Shown here piece after piece: positions 1 through 62,747 of a stretch of 64,000 nt of DNA; position 1 is the stretch's first letter; each line of letters opens with the position of its first letter. The translations under genes were made by a program, and so were the position numbers. A model generated the notes under the pieces. The model saw only the letters and a list, made by a program, of their open reading frames with translations. It did no database searches and was not told the origin of the DNA. This stretch comes from Tubiluchus corallicola (Eukaryota; Animalia; Priapulida), in contig JAQGDQ010001052.1 of NCBI GenBank assembly GCA_030141605.1, positions 1 through 64,000 on the forward strand. Direction: 5' to 3'.

Positions 1-1159
1 AATATTAGGAAAAATGGCTTCATCAGATTCGCCATTTCTATTTACTTTTTCTGCCTGGTGCTTTTGTAGCATCAATTTTACCCTATTATCATCTACAAAT
101 AATCCAAAACAATGCGTAAGGGAATTAATAATACTATTTTTGTTTTTAATGAATCTTGTTACCGACTGTGTAATGAAAACCAGTTACCGACTATAGTATA
201 ATAATCACGAAGTTCAGATTATCGAAATTTTTTGATTTTAATGTACAGGTTTCGTTTATGTTGATTCGAAAGAACAATCTTGAAAATCTTGAATTTTGAA
301 CAAAAATCTTCAACTCGGCTAGTTAACACCGACTAACCAACAGAGTAATTATTTTAACGAGCCAAAACTGGAATCTATAAGCTATAATTAAGACGTTTAG
401 TAGCTATTGCATGCCTGCAGAATTCCGTGCTTATTAGTAATTCTATCATGAGTGGTAGCACTTACTGTATTTTTATGTATATTAGAGCTGTGTAAGCACT
501 TTAAAGGTTTTGCTAATTCATCCCACGACTAATTTTCCCGTAAACACAATTAAACACAAAGATTTACTCAGCTAGAATAACAGAATTGCCAGAGTGAACC
601 GCAGAAGTGCCATAATTTCAAACATGTCCGCCGCGATGTTTAGTGGAAGATAAGAATAATTCAAATTTCTTTTGCATTTTAACCAAGGCATTTTATGCGT
701 AGGTTTGCGTGGTAATTCAATATTCTTTCTGTGCGTATTGAAATTCAGTGCACATTGTCAAGCGGTTAGTTTTTCTTTAAGAAACAAGATGATGTTGCAT
801 TTCATTTTTAGAATAATTTATGCTAGAAACAAGGTGTATGAGTGAACACGTTCATAGCGAGTGAACGTTCATCACCTAAATCTACAATATGAAGAGAAGA
901 GTAAATGTGTGTTTGCAAACCAAAATCGTTCATAAGTCGGCATTGTTAAAACTATGTTGTGATGTAAAGTAGAATGCAGCAAAAATTTCATCAAATGTCA
1001 AATGTCTGTATTAACAGATGGGCTACGTTTTTATACTAACATCAAAGCATCAGGGAAATTGTTTAGACTCAATCCCATTTTAATTTACTGTCCAAAATAT
1101 GCATTTTCTTACCTATAAAAGATAACAAATGTTTCTTATATTTGAATAATTAGCTTAGA

Positions 1160-29000: not shown

Positions 29001-32000
29001 TTTTAATGGTCCAGATTTCATCCGGTTTTTCCGCTGTCCATAAAAGCGAGGTCCGGCAAACCAAGTTATGAGTGTATTGGAAACATTCGTTACTTTGTTG
29101 TTACTAAACTACTTTATTTCTGTCTTCAGGGCTGGCAGGAATGTAGAACAGCCAATATGTGCTCATACTACAACTCATTAGCTGCAGCAGAGAGATGCAG
29201 AATTGAAAATTTAGAACCGTTTGACGAATATGAAGAATGGCACCTTAAGTGCAGTCATTACGTCGTGACGGTAGCGGCAAACGGAAACGGCTGTTCGTTG
29301 CTTCATGTAAGTTCTGGTAAGAAAGTGATCAGTTATCATGAGTTTTGGTTTGTTCGTTGCTTCATGTAAGTTCTGGTAAGAAAGTGATCAGTTATCACAA
29401 GTTTTGGTTTGTTCGTTGCTGAATGTAAGTTCTGGTAAGAAAGTGATCAGTTATCATGAGTTTTGGTTTGTTCGTTGCTGCATGTAAGTTCTGGTAAGAA
29501 AGTGATCAGTTATCATGAGTTTTGGTTTGTTCGTTGCTGCATGTAAGTTCTGGTAAGAAAGTGATCAGTTATCACGAGTTTTGGTTTGTTCGTTGCTTCA
29601 TGTAAGTTCTGGTAAGAAAGTGATCAGTTATCATGAGTTTTGGTTTGTTCGTTGCTGAATGTAAGTTCTGGTAAGAAAGTGATCAGTTATCATGAGTTTT
29701 GGTTTGTTCGTTGCTTCATGTAAGTTCTGGTAAGAAAGTGATCAGTTATCACGAGTTTTGGTTTGTTCGTTGCTTCATGTAAGTTCTGGTAAGAAAGTGA
29801 TCAGTTATCATGAGTTTTGGTTTGTTCGTTGCTTCATGTAAGTTCTGGTAAGAAAGTGATCAGTTATCATGAGTTTTGGTTTGTTCGTTGCTGCATGTAA
29901 GTTCTGGTAAGAAAGTGATCAGTTATCATGAGTTTTGGTTTGTTACTAACTGAAGTTGTAGCTTAAGCGACATTTCTTCTGCTGTCTTGATTCTTCCTTT
30001 TGTTTCTCTTCTTTTTGTTCTTGTTCTTGTGATTGTTCTACTTGCCGTTCTGGTGATTTATTTACGATACATTTCAATGGATTTCAGTTCGTGTTTTAAA
30101 CCTTTTTTGGAAGCCTTTCCTAGATGCTTTCTTCGCAATATTAATTTACTAAATGTTTTTTTAATAAATAAACTTTTTATGTCAGAATAATAGGTGTGCG
30201 GTAAAAATGGCACAGGTAAAAATGACACCAAAAAATACACAAATGGAAAAGTAAGGAAAAATATGTGTCACGTATATTATTTTGATGCAAGTGATTTCTA
30301 TAATAAAACTAGAATGTGCTCTATAGATCTCTGCCAAAGCTATACAGTTTTAAACTTATTCTTCTGATTCTTTTGATAAAAAAATTAACACACACACATA
30401 TATATAAACAAGCAAACATACAAGAATGTATCTGTATTGGTATTATATAGACTAGCAAAATATTTGTTCATTAAATAGATTTATAATCAATAATGCGTAA
30501 ATATTCCACGTAGTGTTTAAAATATCTATCTTTTTCATCATTGATTTCCGCCATGGTAATAGACTGACAGATACATACATACCAAGTTAACTTATAAGGC
30601 TATACAAATTATTAAGCAAAGGTTATAGACTGTGCCATTTTTACCGTGGCAGTTTTTTCCTGTGCTCTTTTTACCTGTGCCATTTTTACCTACATTTGTC
30701 AGAATGGATTTTTTTTCTGATATTAACGCTTTTATTGTTGCATAAATTCATCATATCGTCTCTTTCATGTATGTTTTTCTGTACTGCACTGGTATGTTAA
30801 TTGTGTAAGTTTTGCGCTATCTAAATGTTTGCAATTATGGCTAGTTTTATGCTCTATAATTATTTCATGTATATTATTTCAGGAAATTCCTCAAACTACT
30901 CTACTAAATTATGAGCCATACACAGAGAATAAACTCCAGAGGTGGCAGTTACGTAGTCATTCGGAATTTCAAGCAAAAATGTTTGGCCACTGCAGCGTAG
31001 AGATTGATGGGGTAGCATTCGTTGTGGGTGGCTTTGGAACTGTGGGGTCTGATAGTGAAAAACACCAGAGATTATCTAATGTATTGGCAGTGGAAATGCA
31101 AAGTGGTTCTTGGACCAACTTGAGTCCTCCAGTAAGGGAATGTGGTATGAAAATCAACTGTTCTATAGTTAAAGTCCCGTCTAGACTATCATGCACGCAG
31201 GATGATATGTTGCGCATGCGAGTGAATGACACTCAAAAGCGAGGATGTTGACCTGCCCGAATGACGGCTTTCCATGATACCAGTGAAATTCAATGTGCAC
31301 ATGTGTTCCCGATAACTTTTTCCCAGTTAAGATTTGCCCAATCAGAGGCCCAAACTTTGTCACATGACTATTAATGTTGTTGTAGAGTTCTGTTTTCAAT
31401 TTGGATAACCGATTAGTCTAAACGCAGGATTCATATAATAATAACAATAATAATAATAATCTTTATTTAAAGTCGGCTTTTGGGTCAACAATTAACATTA
31501 GCTCAAAGAGCTATCATCGCCGACTGTAAATAACAACCTACATCTACATAACAGAGACTATTATTACCCCACTTTTTACCCTAAATACCACACGTCAGGC
31601 AGGGCAACAGCAGGTACCATTTTTGAAGTTTTTGGTATGACCCGGCCGCTGGTTCGAACTCACGACCTCCCAGACGGAAAGCAGATGCGTTATCACTAGA
31701 CTAAACCGTCTGGTCAAATCATCAGGAATGCAAGATATGCAAGAATGATAACTTTGAGTGTCACTGACTCACAGTTTTAACACGTGGTAGTCTAGACTAG
31801 GAATTATTTAAGAATTCTGAAACAACGTCGCCGTAGAAAACAAAACTAGTAAACTGAAGTTTTGTGCTTGAACGTTTGAAAATGAAGTTTCGTTCAAAGT
31901 GTTTTTGTGTTTTATTTTCCAGAATTTGCCACGCTTACAAAGTTGTGTGAAAACTTAATACTTCTGGGTGGACGAACGTCTCCGCTTAAACCTCTTGTCA

Positions 32001-35000
32001 CTGTGACATCTCTGCAAGCTCAGCAACTTTTATCTGACTATGCTGTGAAAAGATTTTGCAGTGTTGCCTGCGAGAAATCCTCCTCGCGTTTTACTCGTGA
32101 TAGGACGCAAAGTAAAAACGTTGAAGTTGAAAATCCATGTAAAAATCATCAAAAAGATAACGGATGCGCGGTTTCCATGGTAACTTGTGACTTTTATCCC
32201 AGGTGGCGACACACGGCGACTGCCGTTTCTTACGACGGCGAGCCGTGCTTGTTCGTTTACGGTGGAAGAAGTATAAACAAAGGACACCATGACGGCGAAA
32301 AATGGAATTTTCCCTTGGAAAAAAGGGATAGAAAATATTTAGTGTTAGAAGATAGTTTACTGGCAAGAGTTGTTGCAAATAAAGTCAAGTGGACAAAGGT
32401 CAGTTTAATTGAAAGCCTCTTTCTGTTGACTTTGAATGGATTTAGCTATTATTAGGTGGCGAATAAACTTAACTGCCTAATGGTTAATCCACTTCTAGTC
32501 AGTTCATACTTTAACCCTTTCACTACGGCAGGTGATAAATGCTGCTTGTTTTTCATGCATGGGTCGGAAGATGGTAGACTGCCACCCAAACTCAGCACTA
32601 AGCGCAGACATCCAGGTCTGTTTATTTCACTGCTAAGGCCATGCAAAACATTGTAGAAATGTTTAACAGCCGTGGGATTGGGGTTGCTTTGCACCAAGTA
32701 ATGCTAACTGGCCAATCAGCATCTGAAGCCAGGTGCATTCCACAATACTGTACTGTATGGTATGTTCCCATACAAAATAATTTGTGCATTGTTGATGAAA
32801 CGCATGTTTAGTTGATTGTTCTGCATTCTTATAAAATGATTGAATATTATGGATTAGTATTGTCTTTTGTGAAAACTGGTTTCTAAATATAAGTAAGTAC
32901 ATGCTTATTTATGAGGGTGTGCACGTGTGTGTGTGCGTGCGTGTGTGCATGCGTGTGTGTGTGCACATGTGCGTGCATGTATGTGTGCTCGTATGTGTGT
33001 GCATTGTGGAGAAATAAAGCTAATATTTAATATTAGTACTCAATAACAAACAACTATTTGTTTATTTACAAGGTTTGTTTGCGTAACACACCACAAGAAG
33101 TTATTGACAAATGTACAAAAGTCAATGTGGCCCAATTAAAAAGCAACTGTGTAGTGAAACTGTTAATGTATTCACTTTGGATAGCTCATTTTAAACACGT
33201 TTCTATACTGTTTACTTTAGTTTATCGCAGTTGGAGAAAGTCCGGGACCAAGATTCAGTCATACGTGTTCTCATTGGAATGATAAACTTGTGCTGGCATG
33301 TGGACTCAATGAACATTATCAGCCTCTTGGTTCCGTATTCATTTTAGATTTGTCTAGGAAAGAATGGCGTGAACTCAAAGTTTTTCCGAAGTTGAGACCC
33401 AGGTCAGTAAACTGTTTTTACAGGTAGAATTAATGGTGATAGTAATTAGTGCAAGGTGCAAAACTGAATAATTGCTGTGTGTGCTTAGAGACACAAGTTA
33501 AGCAATGCTAAATCTGTTGAATAAACTGCAGTAGTTGTGTATGTTCTGAGTAGTTTTGTCTGCCACGCTGCCTCTGGTTGGAGGATATTTATGCTGTCCG
33601 AATGTTGCTCAGTCGAGACCGATGCTCGTGTAGTGTTTCTTAGGGTTTTTATTCATGATAATCAAATACATCCTGGTCCTTCCACAACTATCTATATTGA
33701 CTATTTTTGATTGCTGGATAAATAAATAACATGTGGTATTGGGAATGTGCTGGTTTGAGTGCTTCGTTGTGAATGATTTTTCAGTCATGCCGTTATAATA
33801 ATGTTATTTTCTTCATGTTAGGAGCAGTGCAGTCCCTTCACAGAACTAATCTGGCCCCGTTAGTCGTTAAAATAAAGCGATTTTGTCTCTAAGAACTCGA
33901 GAGTTTAGGGGATTTTATCTGCCGACATCAGTAGGATTAAAAATCATTTTAGTGGGGGTGCTTGTTTAGAAAATTGTTGACCATTGTTTTAATATTGCAT
34001 AAAACGAAACAAACATATAAAAGGAAAATTTAGTTATAAAGAAACACTAACTCACACTTGCACAACAGGGTCGGCACTGCATGAGCGACAGTGCTTTTTC
34101 TACCTAGCATGCAGCTTATCTCAGACAAGTGCACATGGACGCATGCACACAACAGCCAAACACTGTGTCGCTGGAACTGTGAAACGCGCAGTTTCGTACA
34201 AGAATTTTTGTGAATTTTTTCATGAACTAATGGCTACTGACATTAAACTTAAAGATTATATAATGTACGACTATAAAGAAAGAATTAAAGAAAAAGACTC
34301 GTATTGAATGTCATTTATCGCATCAAGTGAAAATAGGGGGTGCTGCAGTACCGCAGTACCTATACACGAGCCACCGCTGGCATTGTCATGTAGTTTTGTT
34401 TTTAAGGTTTTATGTGTAGCCTATCTATTATTCAATTTTTGTAGGTACGAGACTATAACTAACTGGGTAGTATTCATTTTAATGAAAGTTTGTATTTTTA
34501 TGCAACATTTTTTTTACATTTAGGTATTCACACACTGCACACGTTGTACATGGATGTTTAATATTAGTCGGTGGAGTTAGTACAGACTGTGAGCATGCTC
34601 CCGGTGTAGCAATAATAAATCTAGATACCGGTCGTCATCAGGAATTCAAACTGCCTGTGAGTACGAAACAAAAAATCTGTCGCTTTTTCACTGTTAATTT
34701 TGCCACTAAATCTGGATCGTTCGGGGACTTTAGGGTTTTTAGGGTTGCATTGTTGGAACCCATTTTGCAAATTTTTCACGTTGAAAGAAAAGCTAACCCT
34801 GCATTGTTGGAACCCATTTTGCAAGTTTTTCACGTTAAAAGAAAAGTTCACCGTGCATTGTTGGAACCCATTTTGCAAGTTTTTCACGTTAAAAGAAAAG
34901 CTAACCATGCATTGTTAGAACCCATTTTGCAAGTTTTTCACGTTAAAAGGAAAGTTAGCCATGCATTGTTGGAACCCATTTTGCAAGTTTTTCACGTTAA

Positions 35001-36665
35001 AAGGAAAGTTAGCCATGCATTGTTGGAACCCATTTTGCAAGTTTTTCACGTTAAAAGGAAAGTTAGCCATGCATTGTTGGAACCCATTTTGCAAGTTTTT
35101 CACGTTAAAAGAAAAGCTAACCATGCATTGTTGGAACCCAGTTTGCAAGTTTTTCACGTTAAAAGGAAAGTTAGCCGTGCATTGTTGGAACCCATTTTGC
35201 AAGTTTTTCACGTTAAAAGGAAAGTTAGCCATGCATTGTTGGAACCCATTTTGCAAGTTTTTCACGTTAAAAGAAAAGCTAACCATGCATTGTTGGAACC
35301 CATTTTGCAAGTTTTTCACGTTAAAAGGAAAGTTAGCCGTGCATTGTTGGAACCCATTTTGCAAGTTTTTCACGTTAAAAGGAAAGTTAGCCGTGCATTG
35401 TTGGAACCCATTTTGCAAGTTTTTCACGTTAAAAGAAAAGCTAACCCTGCATTGTTGGAACCCATTTTGCAAGCTTTTCACGTTAAAAGAAAAGTTAACC
35501 GTGCATTGTTGGAACCCATTTTGCAAGTTTTTCACGTTAAAAGGAAAGTTAGCCGTGCATTGTTGGAACCCATTTTGCAAGTTTTTCACGTTAAAAGGAA
35601 AGTTAGCCGTGCATTGTTGGAACCCATTTTGCAAGTTTTTCACGTTAAAAGGAAAGTTAGCCGTGCATTGTTGGAACCCATTTTGCAAGTTTTTCACGTT
35701 AAAAGAAAAGTTAACCGTGCATTGTTGGAACCCATTTTGCAAGTTTTCCACGTTAAAAGAAAAGTTAACCGTGCATTGTTGGAACCCATTTTGCAAGTTT
35801 TTCACGTTAAAAGAAAAGTTAACCATGCATTGTTGGAACCCATTTTGCAAGCTTTTCACGTTAAAAGAAAAGTTAACCATTCTGTAAAGTTAGAAATGTG
35901 CAGGAAAAATGTTAGAAGTATTTAGTAATAGAACTGTGGTAAGCATCTTTCGTGATTAGTGAAATAACTTTAAACTCATGATCATTTCACGCTTGGATGC
36001 TTCCGATTTGAATGTCATTCATCGGTTGAAAAAAGGCAGCACACTATTAATTTCCGTCAAATGTATAAGTTTCTCCTAGAAATTAAATAACTAATCTTGT
36101 GGTATTTTTGGATGAGCATTAAGTAGGCTGCAAAAGTGTGAATTAGCTTTACGCTTTACAAACTGTTTTTTGCAAGTTTTTTTGTTATATTTTTCTAAGT
36201 TTGAGTGATAATAGTAAAATAAACCAACATGTTTAGTGACTTGTCCTTTGCTTTAAGCCTCCATTGCCTGTTTATTATAAGTTGCAGTTGAGCTTGTATG
36301 CAAAATAAGAGTGGCCTGTAGTAGATACTGTATAACATTGATCATTTTTATTGAATCACTTAAGAAGCATGAGTCACAACAAATCAAATTCTCCCGCACA
36401 CGAGTGTTCAGTGGATAAGAATTCTGTTTCGCTTGCTGGTTGCTTTTCTCGTGTGTGAAAACAACTGCAATATTTTCATCTTTGTTTTCAGGAGCAAGAA
36501 GATTCACATCCAGTCTTGCTCCACGGACACACTTCTCATCTCCATAGCGACGGGAAGCTGATTGTCGTAGGCGGTGGTGGCAACTGTTTCTCATTCGGCA
36601 CACATTTGAACTCATCCCCGTTGCTGATGGATTTACGTCCTTGCTTTCAGTCAGTCGAACTTTGA
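23021..36665 (+). CDS. LCMT2: tRNA wybutosine-synthesizing protein 4 / leucine carboxyl methyltransferase 2. Exons: 23021-23145, 24260-24537, 27187-27334, 28134-28323, 29130-29306, 30883-31144, 31923-32398, 33221-33402, 34524-34656, 36492-36665. The short start exon is not fixed; one candidate is ATGACAACACCA|gtaagt at 22304-22315
   Basis: LCM methyltransferase domain (IQGTNDSS..SK, RRTPLINRGYYVR, QIVSFGAGFD, FLSECVLTY, EPFDEYEEWHLKCSHY) followed by kelch-type repeats (GGRTSP, PRWRHTA, PRFSHT, PRYSHTAH) and C-terminal GGGGNCFSFGTHLN. GT-AG introns with consistent phases. Confidence 0.92.
23315..23540. mobile_element. Short TIR element with degenerate TTAGGG-like internal repeats; relatives at about 8900-9520 and 47270-48270
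   Basis: Ends AGTTTACAATTTTCCAC / GGAATTGTAAACT around (GGGTTAG/GGATTAG)n. Confidence 0.55.
24735..26093. repeat. 52-bp tandem array, about 26 copies
   Basis: Unit ACAAGAAACATTCGATGACCTAAAACAAGTAAAGATGACAGATTTTTAAAGG. Confidence 0.97.
26498..26856. mobile_element. TA-flanked (Tc1/mariner-like) MITE
   Basis: TA|CACTCACATCTTGG...CGAGATGTGAGTG|TA. Confidence 0.7.
28620..29074. mobile_element. TA-flanked MITE, same family as 26498-26856, inverted; a partial third copy at about 23810-23976
   Basis: TA|CATTCGTATCTCGGTTTGCCGGAC...GTCCGGCAAACCAAGTTATGAGTG|TA. Confidence 0.7.
29292..29943. repeat. 59-bp tandem array, 11 copies, overlapping an LCMT2 donor
   Basis: GTTCGTTGC recurs at 29293, 29352 and onward. 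Confidence 0.97.
31436..31715 (-). mobile_element. tRNA-derived SINE with (TTA)n-type tail
   Basis: On the minus strand: A-box-like TTTAGTCTAGTGA, B box GAGTTCGAACC, then GGTCATACCAAAAACTTCAAAAATGGTACC, AATAAA and a TTA-repeat tail. Confidence 0.75.
34746..35881. repeat. 54-bp tandem array, about 21 copies
   Basis: Unit TGCATTGTTGGAACCCATTTTGCAAGTTTTTCACGTTAAAAGGAAAGTTAGCCG; gives 18-aa repeat ORFs. Confidence 0.97.
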
Positions 36666-45736: not shown

Positions 45737-48700
45737 GTATGAGTTTATTTCGCATAAAAATATATAGCTTATAAAGACAACAGGATGTTAGTAAAGTAAC
45801 GCATCTATAGAAATTCAGCTTTGTAATGTCCACTCATTTCAGTACTGTTGTAATTACATTACAATATGCGATGTTGCAAGTATCTATAACAGGTATCTTA
45901 GGGCGTAATCTTTAAATGAGTTGTTTGCCTTCAGTAGTCTTGTAATTACATTACAATATGCGATGTTGCAAGTATCTATAACAGGTATCTTAAAGCGTAA
46001 TCTTTAAATGAGTTGTTTGCCTTCAGTACTCTTGTAATTACGTTACAATATGCGATGTTGCAAGTATCTATAACAGGTATCTTAGGGCGTAATCTTTAAA
46101 TGAGTTGTTTGCCTTCAGTACTCTTGTAATTACATTACAATATGCGATGTTGCAAGTATCTATAACAGGTATCTTAAAACGTAATCTTTAAATGAGTTGT
46201 TTGCCTTCAGTACTCTTGTAATTACGTTACAATATGCGATGTTGCAAGTATCTATAACAGGTATCTTAAAACGTAATCTTTAAATGAGTTGTTTGCCTTC
46301 AGTACTCTTGTAATTACATTACAATATGCGATGTTGCAAGTATCTATAACAGGTATCTTAAAACGTAATCTTTAAATGAGTTGTTTGCCTTCAGTACTCT
46401 TGTAATTACATTACAATATGCGATGTTGCAAGTATCTATAACAGGTATCTTAAAACGTAATCTTTAAATGAGTTGTTTGCCTTCAGTACTCTTGTAATTA
46501 CATTACAATATGCGATGTTGCAAGTATCTATAACAGGTATCTTAAAACGTAATCTTTAAATGAGTTGTTTGCCTTCAGTACTCTTGTAATTACATTACAA
46601 TATGCGATGTTGCAAGTATCTATAACAGGTATCTTAAAACGTAATCTTTAAATGAGTTGTTTGCCTTCAGTACTCTTGTAATTACATTACAATATGCGAT
46701 GTTGCAAGTATCTATAACAGGTATCTTAAAGCGTAATCTTTAAATGAGTTGTTTGCCTTCAGTACTCTTGTAATTACATTACAATATGCGATGTTGCAAG
46801 TATCTATAACAGGTATCTTAAAACGTAATCTTTAAATGAGTTGTTTGCCTTCAGTACTCTTGTAATTACATTACAATATGCGATCAGTGATACTTGATAT
46901 ACAGCAGCAGTATCAACTGATTCATTCTTGCTAAATTCAAGCCTTGATCTCTATTCCCGCACTGTCACTATGTGCAGTATTTTGTTTGCTTCGTGCTACG
47001 AAACTTTCATATTTTTTTGCAAGGTATGGTTTTCGAGGTGAGGCCTTGTATGCCCTGTGTGTCCTGTCCGATGTTACGATTACCACAAAGACAGCTGACG
47101 ATTCGGTTGGTTTTAGCTACACTCTGGATCACAGTGGCTACATAATTGGCAAAAAACCTTCACACCTGGAGACAGGTAAAATTATCAAATTTTGTATAAT
47201 GCTGTAGTGAAATTGTTTCTAACATGTTAATTTGCTCTTCTTTGACCAGTCCAATTGCGATAAACAGTTTGTGCAAAAGTTTACAATTCTCCACATCATT
47301 TAAATATCCTAACCCCAATCCCAGGGTTCATCCAACTCTAGTTCTAATCCAGTCCAATTGCAATAAACAGTTTGTGAAAAAGTTTACAATTCTCCACATG
47401 ATTTAAATATCCTAACCCCAATCCCAGGGTTCACCCAACTCTAAATCTAATCCAGTCCAATTGCAATAAACAGTTTGTGAAAAAGTTTACAATTCTCTGC
47501 ATGATTTAAATATCCTAACCCCAATCCCAGGGTTCACCCAACTCTAAATCTAATCCGGTCCAATTGCAATAAACAGTTTGTGAAGAAGTTTACAATTCTC
47601 CACATGATTTAAATATCCTAACCCCAATCCCAGGGTTCACCCAACTCTAAATCTAATCCAGTCCAATTGCAATAAACAGTTTGTGAAAAAGTTTACAATT
47701 CTCTGCATGATTTAAATATCCTAACCCCAATCCCAGGGTTCACCCAACTCTAAATCTAATCCGGTCCAATTGCAATAAACAGTTTGTGAAAAAGTTTACA
47801 ATTCTCTACATGATTTAAATATCCTAACCCCAATCCCAGGGTTAACCCAACTCAAGTTCTAGTCCGCTTCACGAACTAAGTTCTTGTGAATGTGATAGGG
47901 TTGAGACAGTTAACCCTTTAACCGACTATTAACTGATGTAACTGTTTTGAAAATCACTAACCGTTTAACCGTTACTTAGCCAAGTTTTCTACGTATCCGT
48001 ATCAATGAAACCTTGTATGTTAATGAACCCTTGTATGTTTTCTCAGTTGGTGTACGCAGTTAGCAATGTCCCGCTTACGTAAAATTCTGCTATTTACAAC
48101 ATTGTTTCAATTAATTCGGTTGCCTAAGAAGCATCTAAATGATAAATTGCAAAAAGTTTTGCACTCGTGTATGTTACGAGGAACCAGTCAACCAATGACA
48201 ATTAATAACGGTCAAACAGTTTAAAAGCCTAATCATCTCAGCTCTGCTGTCGAGAATTGTAAACTTTTGCCATAGTTTCATATCCAGGCCTGTGCATGTA
48301 CGCGTAAAATAATAATTTTTTCTATATAGGCGATCGAGTCTTCACTTGTCAAAAAAGATTTCTGATGTTGCTTCAGCCTGTTGTGAATTCTGTAGACTAA
48401 TTCTCTCCCGCTAAACTGATAAGTAAGCCGTATTCATAAGATCCTGAAATCTGCATTTATCTCCTTTCTAGCTACTCAATTAGCTTAGCTTGGATATTGA
48501 AATTGACTGTCGCAAACTAAACCCTCACTATAATATCAGCTTTTACAACTTAAAATCCAACTCACATATGAATATTTAATTTAATTTATTATAGACTTAA
48601 TGTAAAACTAGTTTCTTTTGATTCATTATCACTTCGCTGTTAGCGGTGTTAAATTTGTAGAACTGCGAGACAAAGGATGTTATGAGGTCACCAAAGATCG

Positions 48701-51700
48701 GTAAACAAACATCGCTAACTAAAGATGCTTTCAGTAGTGTTTGGGCTTTACGGTGACAAAAACAAAGTCATCATTTCTTGCTTAGCATAACAGTTTATTG
48801 TTTGTATACAATCTTCACGTCATGTGCCCCTTAGTCATTTACTTCATATCTGACACTGAGACGCCATTACCCAAAATTATACATTTTATCTGAAACGAGA
48901 TATATGAATTTCTTTAATAAACTAATTCATTTCTTATCAAAAGATCGATTACGATTACGTGAAATTAATGAGAGACTTACAGTAAATAACTAAATAAAAT
49001 TTACATATATCGTTGGCATTAAATCGTGAGTTACACAGAAACACGTCATCACATGAACACATTGAAACTTGAATGACCGAAAATTGACTAAGATGCAAAT
49101 ATTGAAGCCAGATGTCGCCACTTGTAACTGTAAAACACTATATTAAATTTAACAAACAAAAAACCTTGACATGTAGGCTGTACGTCATTCTCGCTCACTC
49201 ATGCCAAAGACGTGAAACGTGACGATCTTTACGACATTGCAAGCGTTCGAAATTCACCAGAAAAAAGTTTGTTATTTAATTTAAAGCCTCTTTTGTTCAA
49301 TAATAACTACGAATTCTTTGTATAATCGTAATAATGTGTTAAAAAAGTTCAGTGTCTGTTGGGTCTATATAGATGTTTAAGCATATATTCTTGGAGAAAG
49401 AGGTGGCAACAGAATCTGTCTCTGTTTTTTACCAGGAACGTGTGTACTGGTCACCAGGTTATTCCACAATCTTCCCGTAAGAAAACAGTTTTGCACAAAC
49501 AAACAGAATTTGTATTTGTTTTTTACCAGGAACATGTGTACTGGTCACCAGGTTATTCCACAATCTTCCCGTAAGAAAACAGTTTTGCACAAACAAACAG
49601 AATTTGTATCTGTTTTTTACCAGGAACGTGTGTACTGGTCACCAGGTTATTCCACAATCTTCCCGTAAGAAAACAGTTTTGCACAAACAAACAGAATTTG
49701 TATCTGTTTTTTACCAGGAACGTGTGTACTGGTCACCAGGTTATTCCACAATCTTCCCGTAAGAAAACAGTTTTGCTCAAACAAACAGAATTTGTATCTG
49801 TTTTTTACCAGGAACGTGTGTACTGGTCACCAGGTTATTCCACAATCTTCCCGTAAGAAAACAGTTTTGCACAAACAAACAGAATTTGTATTTGTTTTTT
49901 TACCAGGAACGTGTGTACTGGTCACCAGGTTATTCCACAATCTTCCCGTAAGAAAACAGTTTTGCACAAACAAACAGAATTTCTGTCTGTTTTTTACCAG
50001 GAACGTGTGTACTGGTCACCAGGTTATTCCACAATCTTCCCGTAAGAAAACAGTTTTGCACAAACAAACAGAATTTGTATCTGTTTTTTACCAGGAACGT
50101 GTGTACTGGTCACCAGGTTATTCCACAATCTTCCCGTAAGAAAACAGTTTTGCTCAAACAAACAGAATTTGTATCTGTTTTTTACCAGGAACGTGTGTAC
50201 TGGTCACCAGGTTATTCCACAATCTTCCCGTAAGAAAACAGTTTTGCACAAACAAACAGAATTTGTATTTGTTTTTTTACCAGGAACGTGTGTACTGGTC
50301 ACCAGGTTATTCCACAATCTTCCCGTAAGAAAACAGTTTTGCACAAACAAACAGAATTTCTGTCTGTTTTTTACCAGGAACGTGTGTACTGGTCACCAGG
50401 TTATTCCACAATCTTCCCGTAAGAAAACAGTTTTGCACAAACAAGAAGAAACGAAGCACAGAATTGAACAAGGTCATAGAGCTTCTTCGTGCTTACGGTC
50501 TGGTTTACCCGCGAGTTCGTTTAATTCTGAGACACGACAGGGACGTTGTTTGGCAAAAAGATGTTTTTCACGACACGCGATCGTCACTATCGTCGTTGCT
50601 TGGTGTTGACCTGGCAAATAGTTTAGAGCATGTCAAACTGTGCAGAGATCAGGTTTGTAATATTTGATCTCATTGAGGTAAGATTTGAGTTTGGCTTGTC
50701 GTCAGGTAAGGAAGTACAATAGGTGACATTTATTAGACTCACGGTTAATTGACTCAATCGCTTAATTGACTCAAAAACATCTAGTACGGGCCGCTTCTGT
50801 TCAAATGTACATAAAAACTGTTGGTAATTGACTCAATATTTTTACTTCATATACTTAAAATAAGATACTTGTGTGTGCCCAAAGAGCTTTTATTGCTTGC
50901 ATATCATCTTTATATTGATTTTATGTATTAAATATTGACTATAATATACATATAAACAGTCATGTTAAGTACAGCTTTGTTTGTAAGCAGATACAATACG
51001 TTTATCACATGCACTAATATGTTAGCTTAGCGGGTTTGCTTTGAATCTGTCACCCGCTTGTCCACTGCAATTAACCTCGTTGTTTCTGGAAGCTAAACAT
51101 TTAATCACTTGACCAGCGGTTTGCTTTGAATCTGTCACCCGCTTGTCCACTGCAGTTAACCTCGTTGTTTCTGGAAGCTAAACATTTAATCACTTGACTA
51201 GCGGTTTGCTTTGAATCTGTCACCCGCTTGTCCACTGCAGTTAACCTCATTATTTCTGGAAGCTAAACATTTAATCACTTGACCAGCGGTTTGCTTTGAA
51301 TCTGTCATCCGCTTGTCCACTGCAGTTAACCTCGTTGTTTCTGAAAGCTAAACATTTAATCGCTTGACCAGCGGTTTGCTTTGAGTCTGTCACCCGCTAG
51401 TCCACTGCAGTTAACCTCATTGTTTCTGGAAGCTAAACATTTAATCACTTGACCAGCGGTTTGCTTTGAATCTGCTACCCGCTTGTCCACTGCAGTTAAC
51501 CTCGTTGTTTCTGGAAGCTGAACATTTAATCACTTGACCGGCGGTTTTGCTTTGAATCTGTCACCCGCTTGTCCACTGCAGTTAACCTCATTGTTTCTGG
51601 AAGCTAAACGTTTATTCACTTGACCAGTGGTTTGCCTTGAATCTGTCACCCGCTTGTCCACTGCAGTTAACCTCATTGTTTCTGGAAGCTAAACGTTTAT

Positions 51701-54700: not shown

Positions 54701-57700
54701 TTGTATAGGCTTCACACTGAATACGTTTGTTCAAACATTTCAAAAGCTTTTAATGAAAGTTTCATAAGGAAACCATTTGTTTAAGCATTTCAAAGCTTTC
54801 TAGAATACATCTGACTAATCTTGAACAAAACGAACGTTTCTAGTACGGGTTGTTCACACTGAATATGTTTACTCGTGGATTTCTAAACTTCCAGTTTAAG
54901 TTTCACAGCGAAAACGTCTACTTTCAAATTTACTGTTCATTGTTGTGCAATAATTTAGCTTTGACGTTGAGTAACAACTCAAGACATTCTACTGGATAAA
55001 CGTTTAGTATTAATTTATTGAATTTTAAGCACCTGGGTGCAAACTTTTCTGTGCAACCTGTAGATCGGTAGTTAGACTAACATGTCGTTAATTAAGTTTT
55101 TAACTTATTATTTAATTATTAGAAATACTTTGGCATTATCGTATGTGTTAAAATATATACATTTAACCATACTTCAAAATGATATGAAAAATCATCCTGT
55201 TTTGCTTTAAATGTAATAACTTGCTTGCATTGAAAATCACCATAGATACAGGGATGAGAATTTTCCGTGGATACGCGGAATTCCGAGTTTTTGGAAGACC
55301 AGTAGTGCCACTTTTGTAAATCGCGTAAATTCGTTGAGAAAATTTTTACGGACCCAGTACATTATTTCGCAAGCTGGCCGCTAGGTGGCAGGCCGTCACT
55401 TTGTTTACATCACGTACATCAGTGTAACCACGTGTATATCTTTATGTGTAAAAATATAGAATCAATTGTGTGGAGTTATTTGAGTCAATTGCAGACAGTT
55501 TTTATAAACTTTTGCATAAGAGCAGCCAGTACTTAGGCGTTTTTGAGACAATTAGGTATCATGTATCCTTGATAGTTGGATATTTTAAATTATGCATGAA
55601 ACAAGGTAATTGATATTGTAAGTCCACTTAGAGGCTCTCTATGGCCACAAAATTGCAATTTGTTGCTGGTTCCAAGGGGGTTTCCCTTGAACCCCATTGG
55701 GGAAGGCCCCCAAACCCCCGGCCTGTTTCAGAGTTTTTTGCAATTTGTCATTCTCATCCCTGTAGATGTTGAAAATGGGTGAAATTGATAAAAACCCATT
55801 ATCTTTAAAATCTTGTATCTAATCCATTCCATGAACTTAAATAAATATTCATAATTTTAGGCGTTAAAGCGGCACTTTTTCTCAGTTCACTCGTGCAAAG
55901 TAGGTAGCTCTTTGCGACATCCCGTTGCGCTACTTTTCATCACAGTGCCACCTGCAGGCGTGGACGTGAACTTAGAACCGAACAAAACTAAAGTGCTTCT
56001 TCAAGAAAAGGTAATGTGTTGGACTATTAAACGTTCTTGCATTTTCATAAGCACAATTGTTCATAGTGTTCTAAGTGTATTTTGCTTGATCAATTTGGCA
56101 TTTGATTGGTCGGTTTGTTGATTAGCTTGTTTATACATTAAAACATATTGTAAATATAGGTATTAGGATAAATAGATAAAATAGATTGAGAAAGTATGCT
56201 AACTAATTTGTTAAAATAGATTCTTCTTTCGATGAGTTTTTTTATTACTGCTAATTGTAAATTATTTTATGAAATTTGTTTTGTACTGATAAAGTCCAAT
56301 CAGTGAAAATGAAGCAAAATTTTCACTTAGGTGCGTATTGATGTATCTCAGAGTATAAAGAGTCAAGAAAGTTGGTGAAAAGGCACCAGTTCTTTGAAAA
56401 CATGCTCAGGGGAGCAGTTGCTCCCCTTACTCCCCCTTAATAGCTACGCCCCTGGTATAAACTGCAGCAAGGAACTGTTACATTATTAGCGTGGCATTGA
56501 AAATGATGATTTTGTTACAGGACGGTGTTTTTGCTATGTTTGAAGAATGTTTAGTCAAAGTGTATGGACACCCTGCTGTGAAAACATCTGTGCAAGGTGC
56601 TAGAGCAACTTCAGTAGAAGTGGAAGAAGCCACTTTCAAGTGCAGTGCATTTAGTTTGAGTAGTGACCACACTGACCACACTCTCCGGGATGATGCAACT
56701 ACTAGCAATGATGTCGAGGCAGGTGCTAGTGTTCAAAACAGAACCGACGTTACACGGTGTGATGTTGCGACCGCTATAGATTTGCAACATGGTGTCGAGG
56801 CAGGTGCTAGTGTTGAAAACAGAACCGACGCTACACGATGTGATCTTGCCACCGCTAAAGATTTGCATAATCTTGTTGAGACAGGTACTAGTGTTCAAAA
56901 CAGAACCGACGCTACACAGTGTGATCTTGCCACCGCTAAAGATTTGAAAAATGTTGTTGAGAAAAGTAGTTCTTTGAATAACGCAAGCAGGAGAGAAGAG
57001 AATCGACAATCGTTATGCAAAATTGCACTTACAGACTCTCACACGGATGCGAAAAAATATGAAGTTGACGAATATAGACCACTCTGTGATTTTCCGTGCA
57101 GTTTTGACGACGACTTAGTGGAAGATTTGACTCTAGAAGAAGATGATTTATTGAGAAACGTGTCAGACGTTCTCGAAGAAGCAGCGTATTTTGAAAAACC
57201 TCGTGCTGAGATGACGGAAAATTGTGCAGGCGATATTGGTGATGTTTATGCTAGTGGGGCAGCAACTGAGTGCGAGTTTCATAATAGCATTAAAAATACT
57301 GAAGTAATTAGTGATGCTTATCACAGTGGTGAAGCCAGGTTCAATGTCCAACTAAACACAACTAAAACATCCTCGCATTCGTTAGCAGATTCTGAAGCAG
57401 CAGCCCCCGCGCTGTCGGTTGACCTTGAATCTTGGACTTGCGGACGTGCATTTGTGGATCAAACTAAGCAACCAGTGGAGGTATGAATAGTTTTTGTAGG
57501 AACGTGTGAAGATGGACATGATAGAGACGAAACCACTTTGATGGCTTCTTTTCTCACCTGTATTTAGGCTTGTTACTGAACAGCAATGCTTCCATACATG
57601 GTGATATGTACCTGTATCATTATAATATGGATAATTAATATTTACATGCTTGAGCATTTGCTGATAAAAGAAATGTGAAATCATTGAAGCGTACAGTAGA

Positions 57701-60700
57701 TTGTACTGTAGATACGTAACAATCAATGCAGCGAGCGTACCATTAGTTCACTTAATGAGCTAAATCAGCAAAGTGTTAACTCTTTCGGGACAGCACCATT
57801 CAAAATTGGTCTTATGAGACCTATGACTTTTGTACTACTGTATGAGCACAGACATAACTAAATGATTACAAATTAGGTACTGTTCTGTTCAGGAGAATCT
57901 CTGCTATCCAATCATGCTATTTGTTTAAACATTTATAAGTGATTTAATTGGATAAAATTAAGAAAAACACGCCCATTTTCAGGCTCTCCAACTTAGCCTA
58001 TTGAGTAGCTTAGCCTGGTGTACACTTGTGTGATCTCACACACTATTTTATTGATCACCTGCTTGCTACAGTCCAGAGAAATGTCTGCTGTACAGAGTTC
58101 CAGGAAAACCTAACCGATCATCCTAGGAGAAATTAAGATCATCTCATCTTTTAACCGGAATTTCTAATTAAAAACAGAGCAGACTTGAGGTCAAAGTGTT
58201 TCAGAGTGTTGTGTCTCTGGATAGTTGAAATTTTCTGCATTAACCAATTTTGTACAAGTGATACTGTACATTGTTACAGTGCAAAGACTGCAGTTACTGG
58301 CAGATTTGTTCCATTCTTTGTCAAAAATCAGTTTTAGTTTGTCTAGGATAAGCAAATGCATTTCATATATAATTTTGCATGAAAATCCATCGTGTGAGGA
58401 GTAGAAACCTACAAAAGTTATGGAATATAACGTCATCGCTGCTTAGTGAGAGCACTTTTCATGAACCCGTGTAAAATTCAGCAAACTCTTACAATCCTGA
58501 AGGAATTAAAAAAGGCTGACCTGTAACGTGAATAAGTTAATTAGTTAACTACATTTTTGCATATAAACTATTGAAATGATAAACCTGAATCTGAAAATGC
58601 AATAGGATCTTTTAATTTAAAGTATTGAAATGGTTTGCTTTTCTGATGGATTACGCTGTAAACTTTACACACTAATGAGTGAAAATTGAATACCATGTTG
58701 AGTTTTTTAGCATTTACCATTCACAAAATTGATTGTCGACAAATATATTTAGCATTTTATTTATAAAGCCTGCATAAATTAACTCGCGTATCGTGATACA
58801 TATCATATCATGAGGTTCGTATCGTGATACATATCATATCATGAGGTTCGTATCGTGATACATATCATATCATGAGGTTCGTATCGTGATACATATCATA
58901 TCATGAGGTTCGTATCGTGATACGTACGTGTGTCATGACCTAAGTGTATCGTTACAGTCTTTAGACAGGGACTAATTTATTCATTTTTTGTTTATGACTT
59001 AGCCTGTTAAAGTTTTCACTTCGGATGCAGCGCCAATCAAACGTCTTCCTTCGTCTCCGTCTGACGGGAACGCTTTGAAGAAACAAAAGATCAATCGAAG
59101 CCAGACAACTTTGTTTGAGTCGTTTAATAGAGAAAGTATCAAGCAGTCTCCGTCGTCGTACATTTCGTTTTGCAATCATACCCGTCGCAAAAGTACGTTT
59201 ATTTCTAAAATATCTCAGCATCAATTTCTGTACGTAGAGCTTCCGTATTAATATTCAAGTAATGCAAGTCCTCGCTTAACAACGCTAATGGGTTCCAACA
59301 AAATGTGATGTTAAGCAAAACGTCATTAAATGAAGCCAAGACTTCCGTAGAAAGTAATGTAAAACAATTGGGATACGTTCCGGAGACAAAAATCAATCCT
59401 GCTTGACTCATATTTGTTAAACATTCTATGAGTTTTATTCATATTTCTACTGATTAATGTCTTCCTGTTTGCCTAAAACCACCTATATATTTTACTTACC
59501 AATACCTAGCTATAGCGGTTTCTATAGTAGGTTAACGTTTAAGCCTAGCCAGGGGTTAAACAATAAACACTGAAGAGTCTAACCCTGGTGTGACCTTGAG
59601 AATTTTACCTACATACTTAGTCTGGTTGCTATAGCAACAGGTTGCAGGCAAAACTGCCCGCTGGTCACTTGATACTTGATACAAACCGCTAGTAATACAG
59701 TAGTAACATAAGCAGTCAGTAGGGAAACAAAAACATGTATAATAATTGCTCTGTTTACGTTATTAGTGCATTTCTAGAACTGAATAATGCGATAGGTACT
59801 GTTTTAATGCATCAAATTAGGTAAAAATTTTGTTGCTCAAATAAAAATTTGCCTTGAACAAAGTAAAAAGTTCGTTGTTAAAGTGAGACGTGTGTCGTTT
59901 AGTGAAAAAAGGGGTCAAATGATCGGCGTCATTAAAACGAAACATCGCTAAACGGGCAGTCATTAAGCGAGGACTTACTGCAGTCATCTTGTAAATACTT
60001 TCATTTGTTAATGCATTTTCTAATTTCTTTTAGGGATTCCAGCTTCCAACGCTTTTTTTATTTATGAAAATCCTCTAACTACACATTGTAAAATCAATTT
60101 GCCACATTGCTAAAACACTTGTCATTTATTTATTAGTAATAGAGGAAAACCTGGGTGCCGACTTCAAACAAATCGGAAATCTTCTGAACAAAAAATGGCA
60201 AGAATTATCCGACGATGAAAGAAAGTCTTACAGAAATTTACCCAGCCAAGGCTTGCCAGGGTGAGTACTGTTCACATGTGAAGTGATGCCGGGGTGAGTA
60301 CTGTTCAAACGTGAAGTGATGCCAGGGTGAGTACTGTTCAAACGTGAAGTGATGCCGGGGTGAGTACTGTTCAAACGTGAAGTGATGCCGGGGTGAGTAC
60401 TGTTCACATGTGAAGTGATGCCAGGGTGAGTACTGTTCACATGTGAAGTGATGCCGGGGTGAGTACTGTTCAAATGTGAAGTGATGCCAGGGTGAGTGCT
60501 GTTCAAACGTGAAGTGATGCCAGGGTGAGTACTGTTCAAATGTGAAGTGATGCCAGGGTGAGTACTGTTCAAACGTGAAGTGATGCCAGGGTGAGTACTG
60601 TTCAAATGTGAAGTGATGCCAGGGTGAGTGCTGTTCAAACGTGAAGTGATGCCAAGGTGAGTACTGTTCAAACGTGAAGTGATGCCAGGGTGAGTACTGT

Positions 60701-62747
60701 TCAAATGTGAAGTGATGCCAGGGTGAGTACTGTTCACATGTGAAATTTTAATGTTGGTGTACGCAGTTATCAATGTCCCGCTTACATAAATTTCTACTAT
60801 TTACAACATTAATCTGCTTGCCCAAGAATCATCTAAGCGGTAAATTGCAAAAACTCTTTCTCTCTCGCGTATGTTACAAGAATTCCGCCATGTTGGACAT
60901 TCTTGCTGGCGTGTGCTAGATTTGAACCACGCCTCTTACTCGTGTAATACTTGGAGTTTGCACACTTGGTGACTCCAAAATGTGTGAGTAAACGTGATAT
61001 GATTCGGAGGCGATAATTGTCTCGTAGCTCTTTCTTTAAAAATTGAATTTTGTTGTTCAAAAACTTCTTCAAACATTCAAAAGGGTTCATCATTTATTCA
61101 CTTACTGAAGAAATACAAAGTTGAGTGAATTGCTATGATGATATAACGGGTTTAGAGTTGGGCAATTTCTTCATATTAGTTCATCATGTATATTTGATGT
61201 TTTGTTATATGTATGACGTCACCGGGAACGGTTAACCTGCCACATTTAATAACATTTAAACGGTTAGCTGAAAAGCTTAACCATCTCACCTCTAAGATGA
61301 GGCGGCTTTCTGGGTGTTAACAAGATTTTTTGTTTGTTTCACAGCTGCAGTAAAAAGAAAAGTCGTACTCCGACCAGCACAAAGTTACTTAAACAGAAGA
61401 ATTCTAAGAAAGCGCCACCTGAACATGTAACAGAACAACTTATTTTACTTTGATTACAGTTTTTGTGTTTGAATAGCAATAGGTTTAGACCGTGCGCTAG
61501 AAATAGATCTCATAAACAAAAATTATGTTGTTAATCAAATAGTTATCTCTATTTTGAAGATAACTCCTTCACTTTTGACTCATCTTTGCATCTAACTTTA
61601 TTATTTTTGCTGTTTTTGAGGCTTTCATTTTGGTAGCCCTCGTGTAAGGAACCAAGTACTGGGTTATATCAAATCTCTAAACAAACTTTTTGTGGTACTT
61701 GCACTTTAACTACCACGATTGTAATGGTTTGATACATTATATACAGCATATATACAATTTTACACCTACGTAGAGCAAAAACTTGGGCATTTATAACTAA
61801 GGGCAGTAGTATCATCATGTAGAAAAAATTCAGTGTTTGTAGACATGTTTTTCATGAATCTGATCTGTATTTGTGTGCTTGAATAGCAGTATCGTCCACA
61901 AGTCGGCAATTGAGTTTTTCTAGTTATTCACGGTATCCTGAATCTCCATTTCACGAGGATCATTTTGATGCCAAGCTCATTGCTCTATGTTGTTTCTAAG
62001 CTGAGATAATCCACGTTGAAGTTGAGGTGCAGGCTGGGCACTGAGAAACATGATCTTGAGAAAATCACTGTTAAAGTCAGCCATTGTTTTTTACTTAGCA
62101 ACCGCACAAATGTTGGTTGCTACGGACTTTGCAAGAACACATTGAAGTTACATTTAAATCCAGTAGATGGCTCTTTTTGACAAAGGTCTGGGTTTGGCAA
62201 CAGAAAAAACCCGAAGCAAAATGGACTGCTTCCACGAGCTACTTCACATTTGAAAATACAAGTTTTTCACAATTTCAGTACTAGTTTCTAACCTGAAAAG
62301 TGGGTACAGGATTTTAAAATTTGATTTTTAGTGTTTTTTGAACATTTTCTTGATAATTTGATCCTAGTTTGTTTTATAAAAAACAAAAAAGACATTTGAC
62401 CAAAGTTTTGGTTCATCCTACTTTCAAGCATCATAACGTAGTTTTAACTATGCTGACTTACGGACGGCTTTGATTTACAAGCACACATTTCGTTCTTCAA
62501 TCACAAGTGATAATTGATAAATATGTTTTAGAAATATTTCTAACATTATCTTTAATATTTGTTTCAGTGCTAATTAAATTTTATTTTGTTGATTTTAGAG
62601 AGGAACTAGACCGATTATCGATTTACTCAAATCTGCTGCAAAGACTGGTCAGCCAATCGCAAACAAGTCACTGCTTCGAAAAGTAATCAGCATTCCATTT
62701 TTCGCGGTCAGCTTAAGAGAAAGGTTAAAAGAACATTCTAGTCGTCG
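44019..62747 (+). CDS. PMS1: PMS1 protein homolog 1 (MutL family, HMG box), 3'-partial. Exons: 44019-44150, 45036-45169, 47024-47175, 50378-50652, 53758-53877, 55861-56010, 56521-57480, 59003-59192, 60137-60260, 61345-61426, 62599-62747; the gene continues beyond the window
   Basis: [104 protein letters not shown] box ([13 protein letters not shown]...[16 protein letters not shown]) is typical of PMS1 rather than PMS2 or MLH1. The last two exons are less certain. Confidence 0.92.
44200..44930. mobile_element. TTAA-flanked MITE copy in the first coding intron of PMS1
   Basis: Collinear with 57777-58509 (GAGCACAGACATAACTAAATGATTA..., GTCCTGAAGGAATT). Confidence 0.65.
45838..46884. repeat. 92-bp tandem array, about 11.4 copies
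   Basis: TAATTACATT recurs at 45851, 45943 and onward. Confidence 0.97.
47245..47870. repeat. 103-bp tandem array, about 6 copies, spanning a TIR-element end plus flank
   Basis: AGTTTACAAT recurs at 47278, 47381, 47484 and onward. Confidence 0.93.
49409..50443. repeat. 94/95-bp tandem array, 11 copies, overlapping a PMS1 acceptor
   Basis: TTTTTACCAG|GAACGTG recurs from 49436 to 50378. Confidence 0.97.
51029..52578. repeat. 85-bp tandem array, about 18 copies
   Basis: TCCACTGCA recurs at 51061, 51146 and onward. Confidence 0.97.
54291..54741. repeat. 163-bp tandem repeat, about 2.8 copies
   Basis: AAACACTTCTCAGAGACTAAGGAGTG occurs three times at 163-bp spacing. Confidence 0.9.
55249..55762. 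mobile_element. MITE with hAT-like TIR CAGGGATGAGAAT
   Basis: Perfect 13-bp terminal inverted repeat; no clean 8-bp TSD. Confidence 0.6.
56710..56960 (+). repeat. 81-bp coding tandem repeat (27 aa x 3) inside the large PMS1 exon
   Basis: [27 protein letters not shown] and two variants; GTCGAGG at 56713 and 56794. Confidence 0.9.
57777..58509. mobile_element. TTAA-flanked MITE copy
   Basis: TTAACTCTTTCGGGAC...TCCTGAAGGAATTAA; aligns with 44200-44930 and in reverse with 11531-12263. Confidence 0.7.
58787..58923. repeat. 31-bp tandem repeat, about 4.4 copies
   Basis: Unit CGTATCGTGATACATATCATATCATGAGGTT. Confidence 0.9.
60254..60744. repeat. 33-bp tandem array, about 15 copies, overlapping the PMS1 HMG-exon donor
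   Basis: Unit GCCAGGGTGAGTACTGTTCAAACGTGAAGTGAT. Confidence 0.97.

What the first reader, a model, noticed from the sequence alone, without database searches (positions are those of the whole stretch)
49409..50652. PMS1 acceptor ladder: 10 extra 3' splice sites, each forming a possible mini-exon and mini-intron
Seen: TTTTTACCAG plus the first about 66 nt of the [19 protein letters not shown] exon is present 11 times, and only the last copy (50378) continues into the ORF. Each unit also carries a consensus-like donor (CCC|GTAAGA), defining 41-nt pseudo-exons separated by 53-nt GT-AG segments. Each also has an AG|GT site (CACCAG|GTTATT). Splicing from that GT in an upstream copy to the AG in the last copy would rebuild the same mRNA as a 22-nt exon plus a new intron, which is the tandem-duplication model of intron gain, though GTTATT is a weak donor. 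A 377-bp higher-order block recurs (49792 and 50169), suggesting secondary expansion. Inference: the spliceosome must bypass ten near-identical acceptors in a DNA-repair gene.
Basis: partly seen in the sequence, partly recalled or inferred. Interest (0 to 1): 0.8.

Follow-up and report, generated by a model that had tools for sequence, protein, structure and literature searches.

The report
Splice-acceptor "mirage" minisatellite in PMS1
The last 28 bases of an intron plus the first 66 bases of the next exon of an animal DNA-repair gene (PMS1) are repeated eleven times head to tail; this kind of repeat is already described in lancelets as a "mirage", and the cell likely splices only to the last copy, so it is probably harmless clutter in a repeat-rich genome.

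Summary
A 94-bp unit (28 nt intron end + 66 nt of PMS1 exon 4) occurs 11 times at 49408-50444, all acceptors are intact, and a 377-bp block is repeated exactly. Read-contig depth fits about 9-11 copies, so it is not an assembly artefact. This scan has noted mirages before in other genomes (8 notes, unchecked). The window holds two more, donor-type, among 17 long arrays; 3 of 13 in-gene arrays cross a splice site against 1.5 expected (P=0.18). All 10 upstream acceptors give premature stops if read through. Acceptor 7 is identical to acceptor 11 for 392 nt upstream and 67 nt downstream, so any choice between them must come from downstream, likely exon definition. The two internal donors are ordinary coding sequence, present in the real exon too. 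The precise intron-gain route lacks a pyrimidine tract. Which acceptor is used was not observed. New member of a known kind; low interest.

The parts
49408..50444 (+). 94-bp minisatellite, 11 copies; unit = last 28 nt of PMS1 intron 3 + first 66 nt of exon 4 (acceptor-type mirage)
   Evidence: TRF; unit table; 6 variable columns plus one 1-nt indel
49408..49501 (+). Copy 1, joined to unique intron sequence; carries two private variants in its intron part
49609..50444 (+). Higher-order duplication, period 377 (4 units), exact over 459 nt; makes acceptor 7 a twin of acceptor 11
50350..50377 (+). Intron end of copy 11, the acceptor that keeps the reading frame; likely the one used
   Evidence: use inferred
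50378..50652 (+). PMS1 exon 4 (275 nt), MutL ATPase region with the NLPVR motif; contains the native internal GT sites at 50400 and 50419
47024..47175 (+). PMS1 exon 3 (152 nt), donor CAG|GTAAAA
44019..62747 (+). Host gene PMS1 (PMS1 homolog 1), manual model of about 10 exons; exons 1-9 read open, later exons uncertain and the gene likely runs off the window
   Evidence: tblastn; model and blastp; names; Pfam
60254..60744 (+). Second mirage in the same gene: 33-bp unit x15 copying the donor at 60260
29292..29944 (+). Third mirage, in the upstream LCM-domain methyltransferase gene: 59-bp unit x11 copying the donor at 29306

Best explanation
This is an 11-copy minisatellite of the 'mirage' kind that duplicates the intron 3/exon 4 border of PMS1; it likely arose as one of this genome's many random tandem expansions and is likely near-neutral because splicing would pick the last acceptor. 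Shown: unit anatomy, 11 intact acceptors, secondary 377-bp duplication, presence in read contigs, premature stops from all 10 upstream acceptors, and identity of acceptors 7 and 11 from -392 to +67. Inferred: a 94-bp slippage or unequal exchange seeded the array and later exchanges expanded it. Inferred: the last acceptor wins by exon definition, because only it is followed by the rest of the exon and lies 275 nt from the donor at 50652 (the others 369-1217 nt). Inferred: occasional use of upstream copies makes stop-containing RNA that nonsense-mediated decay would remove.
For: Same anatomy as BflGb6 in amphioxus (3' intron end + 5' exon part), where RT-PCR suggested normal splicing (PMC3087553; PMC3902484 passage). 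17 long arrays cover 23% of the window; 3 of 13 in-gene arrays cross a splice site against 1.5 expected, P=0.18, so nothing singles out this border. 10 of 10 upstream acceptors give stops at codon 186-311. The exon 3-copy 11 junction is open and aligns without insertion to Nematostella PMS1, 49% over 339 columns. Nothing upstream can tell acceptor 11 from acceptor 7, and predicted accessibility of the pyrimidine tract is equally low in all 11 copies. Depth per assembled copy is 7.4 against a unique median of 7.8 in X1, and 139-146 against 166 in X2.
Against: Acceptor use was not observed; neutrality rests on analogy and reading-frame logic. The gene has a 960-nt exon in my model, so exon length alone does not exclude the 369-935-nt products. 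16 of 110 single-cassette products stay in frame. 5 of 7 mutation events fall in the 28-nt intron part (post hoc P=0.03), which hints that the exon part is held constant across the array, by selection on the last copy plus homogenisation or by use of other copies.
Confidence: 0.8

Rival explanations
1. Leaky decoy array: upstream acceptors capture a real share of splicing events, the products carry premature stops and would be degraded, so copy number tunes PMS1 output.
For: All 11 acceptors are intact and nearly identical; pyrimidine content is 14-15 of 19 in every copy. Copy 10 gives a 369-nt exon, within the window's modelled range of 82-960 nt. The tract is predicted to be the least accessible of 19 modelled acceptors (post hoc, about 1 in 19), so discrimination may be fragile.
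Against: Amphioxus mirages were reported not to disturb splicing (PMC3087553, section 16), and human F7 donor pseudo-sites normally stay silent (PMC1557585, abstract). With only 7 mutation events in the array, intact AGs say nothing about selection to keep them.
Confidence: 0.11
2. Exon birth in progress: an upstream acceptor pairs with the GTAAGA donor of the next unit, giving an in-frame 135-nt cassette exon (45 extra residues in the ATPase domain) followed by a new intron of up to 807 nt.
For: 7 such 135-nt products are among the 16 open products of 110 tested; four leave introns of 525-807 nt, within the window's range. A potato RdRp gene gained an intron from the same kind of duplication by activating a cryptic GTAAG (PMC4974935, section 5). 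CCC|GTAAGA matches 6 of 9 consensus positions, as do several modelled donors here.
Against: The same donor is in the real exon, where its use would delete 78 codons, so it must be largely silent. 16 GT sites of equal or better match lie in 4086 nt of modelled exon. The insertion would fall in a region that aligns without gaps to a distant homologue.
Confidence: 0.05
3. One reading: an upstream acceptor is used, then CAG|GTTATT is spliced to the CACCAG of copy 11, rebuilding the same mRNA with a 22-nt exon.
For: The route rebuilds the mRNA exactly on paper. AGGT lies in the unit, as the Rogers model needs (PMC3443670, section 8). The donor matches 7 of 9 consensus positions, and the gene's modelled donors include weak ones such as TAG|GTATTC.
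Against: The CACCAG acceptor has 3 T in 11 positions against 5-8 in 19 of 19 modelled acceptors and lies 22 nt behind a strong AG. Splicing to that AG instead adds 22 nt and a stop at codon 224. AGGT occurs in 8 of 18 modelled exons, so its presence is unremarkable.
Confidence: 0.02
4. Assembly artefact: the array is absent or much shorter in the animal.
For: X2 depth per copy is 12-16% below the unique median. X1 and X2 are one sample, possibly the source of the assembly.
Against: X1 holds a 124-nt contig, one full unit plus 30 nt, at depth 58.6 against 5-11 for unique pieces. X2 unit contigs reach depth 1312-1442 against 120-188. The units carry structured variants.
Confidence: 0.02

Closest known systems
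Amphioxus 'mirage' minisatellites: globin BflGb6 (acceptor type), BflGb9, Adh3, troponin C, PGBD5 (PMC3087553 section 16 read; PMC3902484 one passage; Canestro 2002 not held, known only through these)
   Same: Tandem units made of the intron 3' end plus the exon 5' part; splice signals copied; block-wise turnover; a divergent boundary unit; same proposed intron-gain potential.
   Different: Another animal and gene; 11 copies of 94 bp against 3-6 copies of 150-160 bp in BflGb6; higher identity (97% against 81-100%); no RT-PCR here.
Human F7 intron 7 37-bp VNTR (PMC1557585, abstract read)
   Same: Minisatellite spanning an exon-intron border with identical pseudo-sites that normally stay silent; direct match for the two donor arrays in this window.
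   Different: Copies the donor, where the first site wins; the acceptor array needs the last site to win, so that scanning rule does not carry over.
[quoted passage not shown]
   Same: AGGT within the duplicated unit; in potato the duplicate also comprised intron end plus exon start, with a cryptic GTAAG donor.
   Different: Those cases have RNA or experimental evidence of a new intron; here there is none, the AG of the AGGT lacks a pyrimidine tract, and the 41-nt exon shifts the frame.
Variable internal tandem repeats at exon-intron boundaries of human segmental-duplication genes (PMC2812944, passages)
   Same: Repeats at exon borders that can alter splicing.
   Different: Those are in recently duplicated paralogues and have transcript support.

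Membership tests
Mirage minisatellite | Head-to-tail minisatellite-like tandem repeat | tested here: met
   94 bp x 11.0, 97% matches
Mirage minisatellite | Unit spans an exon-intron boundary of a host gene | tested here: met
   28 nt intron + 66 nt exon 4 of PMS1
Mirage minisatellite | Copies carry duplicated splice signals | tested here: met
   11 of 11 copies keep the T-tract and CAG
Mirage minisatellite | Regular splicing is not disturbed | not testable with these tools
   Needs RNA that covers exons 3-4; only reading-frame logic was available
Mirage minisatellite | Length instability or turnover of the cluster | tested here: inconclusive
   An exact 377-bp block duplication shows past turnover; no second haplotype or individual was resolved; depth is 0.84-0.95 of the 11-copy expectation
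Mirage minisatellite | Boundary units excluded from homogenisation (reported for BflGb6) | tested here: inconclusive
   Copy 1 has two private variants, but copy 11 is identical to copy 7
Precise intron gain by tandem duplication (Rogers model) | AGGT inside the duplicated segment | tested here: met
   CACCAG|GTTATT in 11 of 11 copies
Precise intron gain by tandem duplication (Rogers model) | Pyrimidine tract in front of the AG that would be used | tested here: not met
   3 T of 11 against 5-8 in 19 modelled acceptors; a stronger AG lies 22 nt upstream
Precise intron gain by tandem duplication (Rogers model) | New intron shown to be spliced | not testable with these tools
   Needs lariat or nascent-RNA data
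Recursive (ratchet) splice sites | Strong acceptor AG followed at once by a donor GT (definition recalled, from no call) | tested here: not met
   The repeated acceptor reads CAG|GAAC in 11 of 11 copies; the AG|GT site has no tract
PMS1 homolog 1 (MutL family, HMG box) | Closest named homologues are PMS1; ATPase + mismatch-repair domain + HMG box | tested here: met
   14 of 20 looked-up hits are named PMS1 and none PMS2 or MLH1; PF01119 above cut-off, HATPase_c_3 and HMG_box below cut-off on single exons

The most novel reading that the evidence does not exclude
The array is an active splice decoy whose copy number sets PMS1 output or adds an in-frame 135-nt cassette exon. A hairpin pairing each pyrimidine tract with exonic AGAAAACAG would weaken all copies, so that only downstream exon definition rescues the last. 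A tandem repeat would then tune a mismatch-repair gene whose mouse homologue is reported to be needed for CAG/CTG repeat expansion (PMC12493176, passage), a possible feedback in a genome full of long arrays.
Probability: 0.08. Interest if true: 0.6.

Novelty: new member of a known kind. Interest (0 to 1): 0.2.

Why it matters
As it stands it is a tidy extra example of mirages outside amphioxus. Its one useful property is the twin acceptor: copies 7 and 11 are identical from -392 to +67, a natural control for whether downstream exon definition alone selects a 3' splice site in an invertebrate. If upstream copies proved to be used, it would be exon or intron birth caught in progress, or repeat-length control of a repair gene.

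Tried and rejected
No RNA holder listed for 46900-50800. The guessed-RNA run X6 showed no depth in the bin holding exon 3; that is no evidence on expression. Runs X4 and X5 showed no piece inside the array; a hole proves nothing. No whole genome is held, so the mirage count could not be taken genome-wide. Two word-index protein searches (exon 4 and an exon of the upstream gene, longer proteins only) found nothing. The HMMER search found 222 relatives of exon 4; among the 150 listed, identity was at most 53%, so no same-species protein was at hand to show the junction. Pfam on exons 3 and 4 alone gave no family. Recursive splicing was rejected (AG|GA). Folding does not single out copy 11. The unit hairpin is not significant: RNA z -0.8 to -1.05, DNA z -1.4 and -1.6, and the 16 arrays tested show no general hairpin trend. 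Enrichment of arrays at splice sites was not found (P=0.18). Paper searches: priapulid + minisatellite + intron gave 0 papers; a PMS1 + repeat + acceptor search listed no paper on such an array among 10 of 11 shown; two searches for experiments on duplicated acceptors gave no direct test in their listings. The organism was not pinned down: no priapulid was among the 20 hits looked up.

Full report
Observation. The sequence and TRF show a 94-bp array at 49408-50444 with 11.0 copies and 97% matches. The motif TTTTTACCAG occurs 11 times in the window, all here. Each unit is 28-29 nt of intron end plus 66 nt of exon. The +22 (CAG|GTTATT) and +41 (CCC|GTAAGA) sites are in 11 of 11 copies, and the GT-AG segments are 53-54 nt. 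The 377-bp period is exact over 459 nt. Six variable columns and one indel sort the units as a unique first copy, two more units, then a four-unit block twice.

Is it in the animal? Read contigs of one sample hold the unit at high depth. X1 has a 124-nt contig (one unit plus 30 nt, as expected for a loop of 31-letter words) at depth 58.6, and X2 has unit contigs at 647, 1312 and 1442 (18 pieces listed, 20 not shown). Dividing by the word multiplicity in the assembly gives 7.4 (X1) and 139-146 (X2), against medians of 7.8 and 166 for the 8 long pieces listed per run. That fits about 9-11 copies. X1 and X2 are the same sample and may be the source of the assembly, so this tests the assembly, not the population.

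Host gene. Exon 4 matches MutL-family structures and 222 proteins. Of 20 hits looked up, 14 are named PMS1 homolog 1 and none PMS2 or MLH1. tblastn with 45 long hits maps the exons. My manual model reads open through exon 9 and aligns to Nematostella PMS1 at 49% over 339 columns, with no insertion at the exon 3/4 junction. The organism is an animal; earlier scan notes call it a probable priapulid, which I could not confirm.

Context. Seventeen long arrays cover 14.7 kb, 23% of the window. Two others copy splice sites: a 33-bp unit x15 at the PMS1 donor 60260 and a 59-bp unit x11 at donor 29306 of the upstream LCM-domain gene. With arrays collapsed to one unit, 13 arrays in gene spans and 38 modelled splice sites give 1.5 expected crossings; 3 are seen (P=0.18). 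This is a small sample on hand-made gene models, but nothing points to targeting of splice sites or of this gene.

Splicing logic. Read-through from each of the 10 upstream acceptors meets a stop at codon 186-311, including the four whose added length is a multiple of three; only acceptor 11 is open. Acceptor 7 is identical to acceptor 11 for 392 nt upstream and 67 nt downstream, so branch point, tract and near-exon sequence cannot separate them. Local folding does not separate them either. The cue must lie downstream: the unique exon body and the donor at 50652, 275 nt from acceptor 11 and 369-1217 nt from the others. Exon definition, backed by nonsense-mediated decay, is therefore the likely mechanism; both are inferred from general knowledge and not observed here. 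A 960-nt exon in the same gene model shows that length alone is no absolute bar.

Both internal donors are coding sequence of the real exon. Sites of equal or better consensus match are common in the window's exons (16 in 4086 nt), and AGGT occurs in 8 of 18 exons. Single 22- or 41-nt exons shift the frame; 4 of 14 combinations of up to three are open. Introns of 53 nt would be a tenth of the shortest of 18 modelled introns (510 nt). The precise intron-gain route works on paper, but its acceptor has 3 T in 11 positions against 5-8 in all 19 modelled acceptors, and the strong AG 22 nt upstream would give a frameshift. The repeated acceptor reads AG|GA, so it is not a recursive site. A more plausible variant is a two-unit 135-nt in-frame cassette ending at GTAAGA: 7 of the 16 open products among 110 single-cassette products, four with introns of 525-807 nt. 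A potato gene gained an intron in a similar way (PMC4974935, section 5). I give this about 5%.

Weak hints, both post hoc. The tract is predicted to pair with exonic AGAAAACAG (z about -1) and is the least accessible of 19 modelled acceptors, though the array itself supplies extra partners. Five of 7 mutation events lie in the intron part of the unit (P=0.03).

Comparison with what is known. Ebner et al. 2010 (PMC3087553; passages, section 16 and reference entries read) describe the same structure in amphioxus BflGb6, name it a mirage after Canestro et al. 2002 (not held), report regular splicing by RT-PCR and propose intron gain from it. PMC3902484 (one passage) adds troponin C and PGBD5. Human F7 (PMC1557585, abstract) shows silent donor pseudo-sites. 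PMC3443670 (passages and section 8) and PMC2812944 (passages) cover intron gain by tandem duplication. PMC12493176 (passages) links PMS1 to repeat expansion in mice. No supplements were read. I reached the mirage reading before consulting earlier scan notes (the term was recalled and searched). Eight unchecked notes from other genomes read the same way and are not independent support.

Verdict. A real, young or recently homogenised acceptor-type mirage in PMS1: new member of a known kind, likely neutral (0.8), interest 0.2. The structural features of the class are met. Undisturbed splicing could not be tested.

Noticed in passing
window 60254-60744: Donor-type mirage in PMS1: 33-bp unit x15 copying AGG|GTGAGT; use of a later donor reads an in-frame TGA.
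   Followed up: partly
window 29292-29944: Donor-type mirage in the upstream LCM-domain gene: 59-bp unit x11 copying CAT|GTAAGT; later donors give frameshift or stop.
   Followed up: partly
window 23021-36665: Leucine carboxyl methyltransferase gene (PF04072), likely LCMT2/TYW4 from its C-terminal kelch-like exons (label recalled), with at least 10 exons; a possible in-frame 21-nt micro-exon at 26215-26235.
   Followed up: partly
window 56707-56961: 81-bp in-frame repeat x3.1 inside the 960-nt PMS1 exon, giving 27-residue repeats in the linker.
   Followed up: no
window 17243-19393 (-): 716-codon open frame that looks like the reverse transcriptase of a non-LTR retrotransposon (label from recall, not searched).
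   Followed up: no
window 200-700 and 2630-3600: Long inverted arms seen by eye (the start of the window mirrors about 3000-3600; about 700-1040 mirrors about 2630-3000), suggesting foldback or MITE-like elements; similar dispersed repeats reach very high read depth elsewhere in the window.
   Followed up: no
window 8926-9045: Sequence resembling a 5S rRNA gene or 5S-derived element (seen by eye, not searched).
   Followed up: no
window 23386-23502: Degenerate interstitial TTAGGG-like array in an intron.
   Followed up: no
protein P0003: A partial catfish PMS1 record carries a 43-residue tandem duplication starting at the same NLPVR motif; from a 1.6-kb contig, possibly an assembly effect.
   Followed up: no
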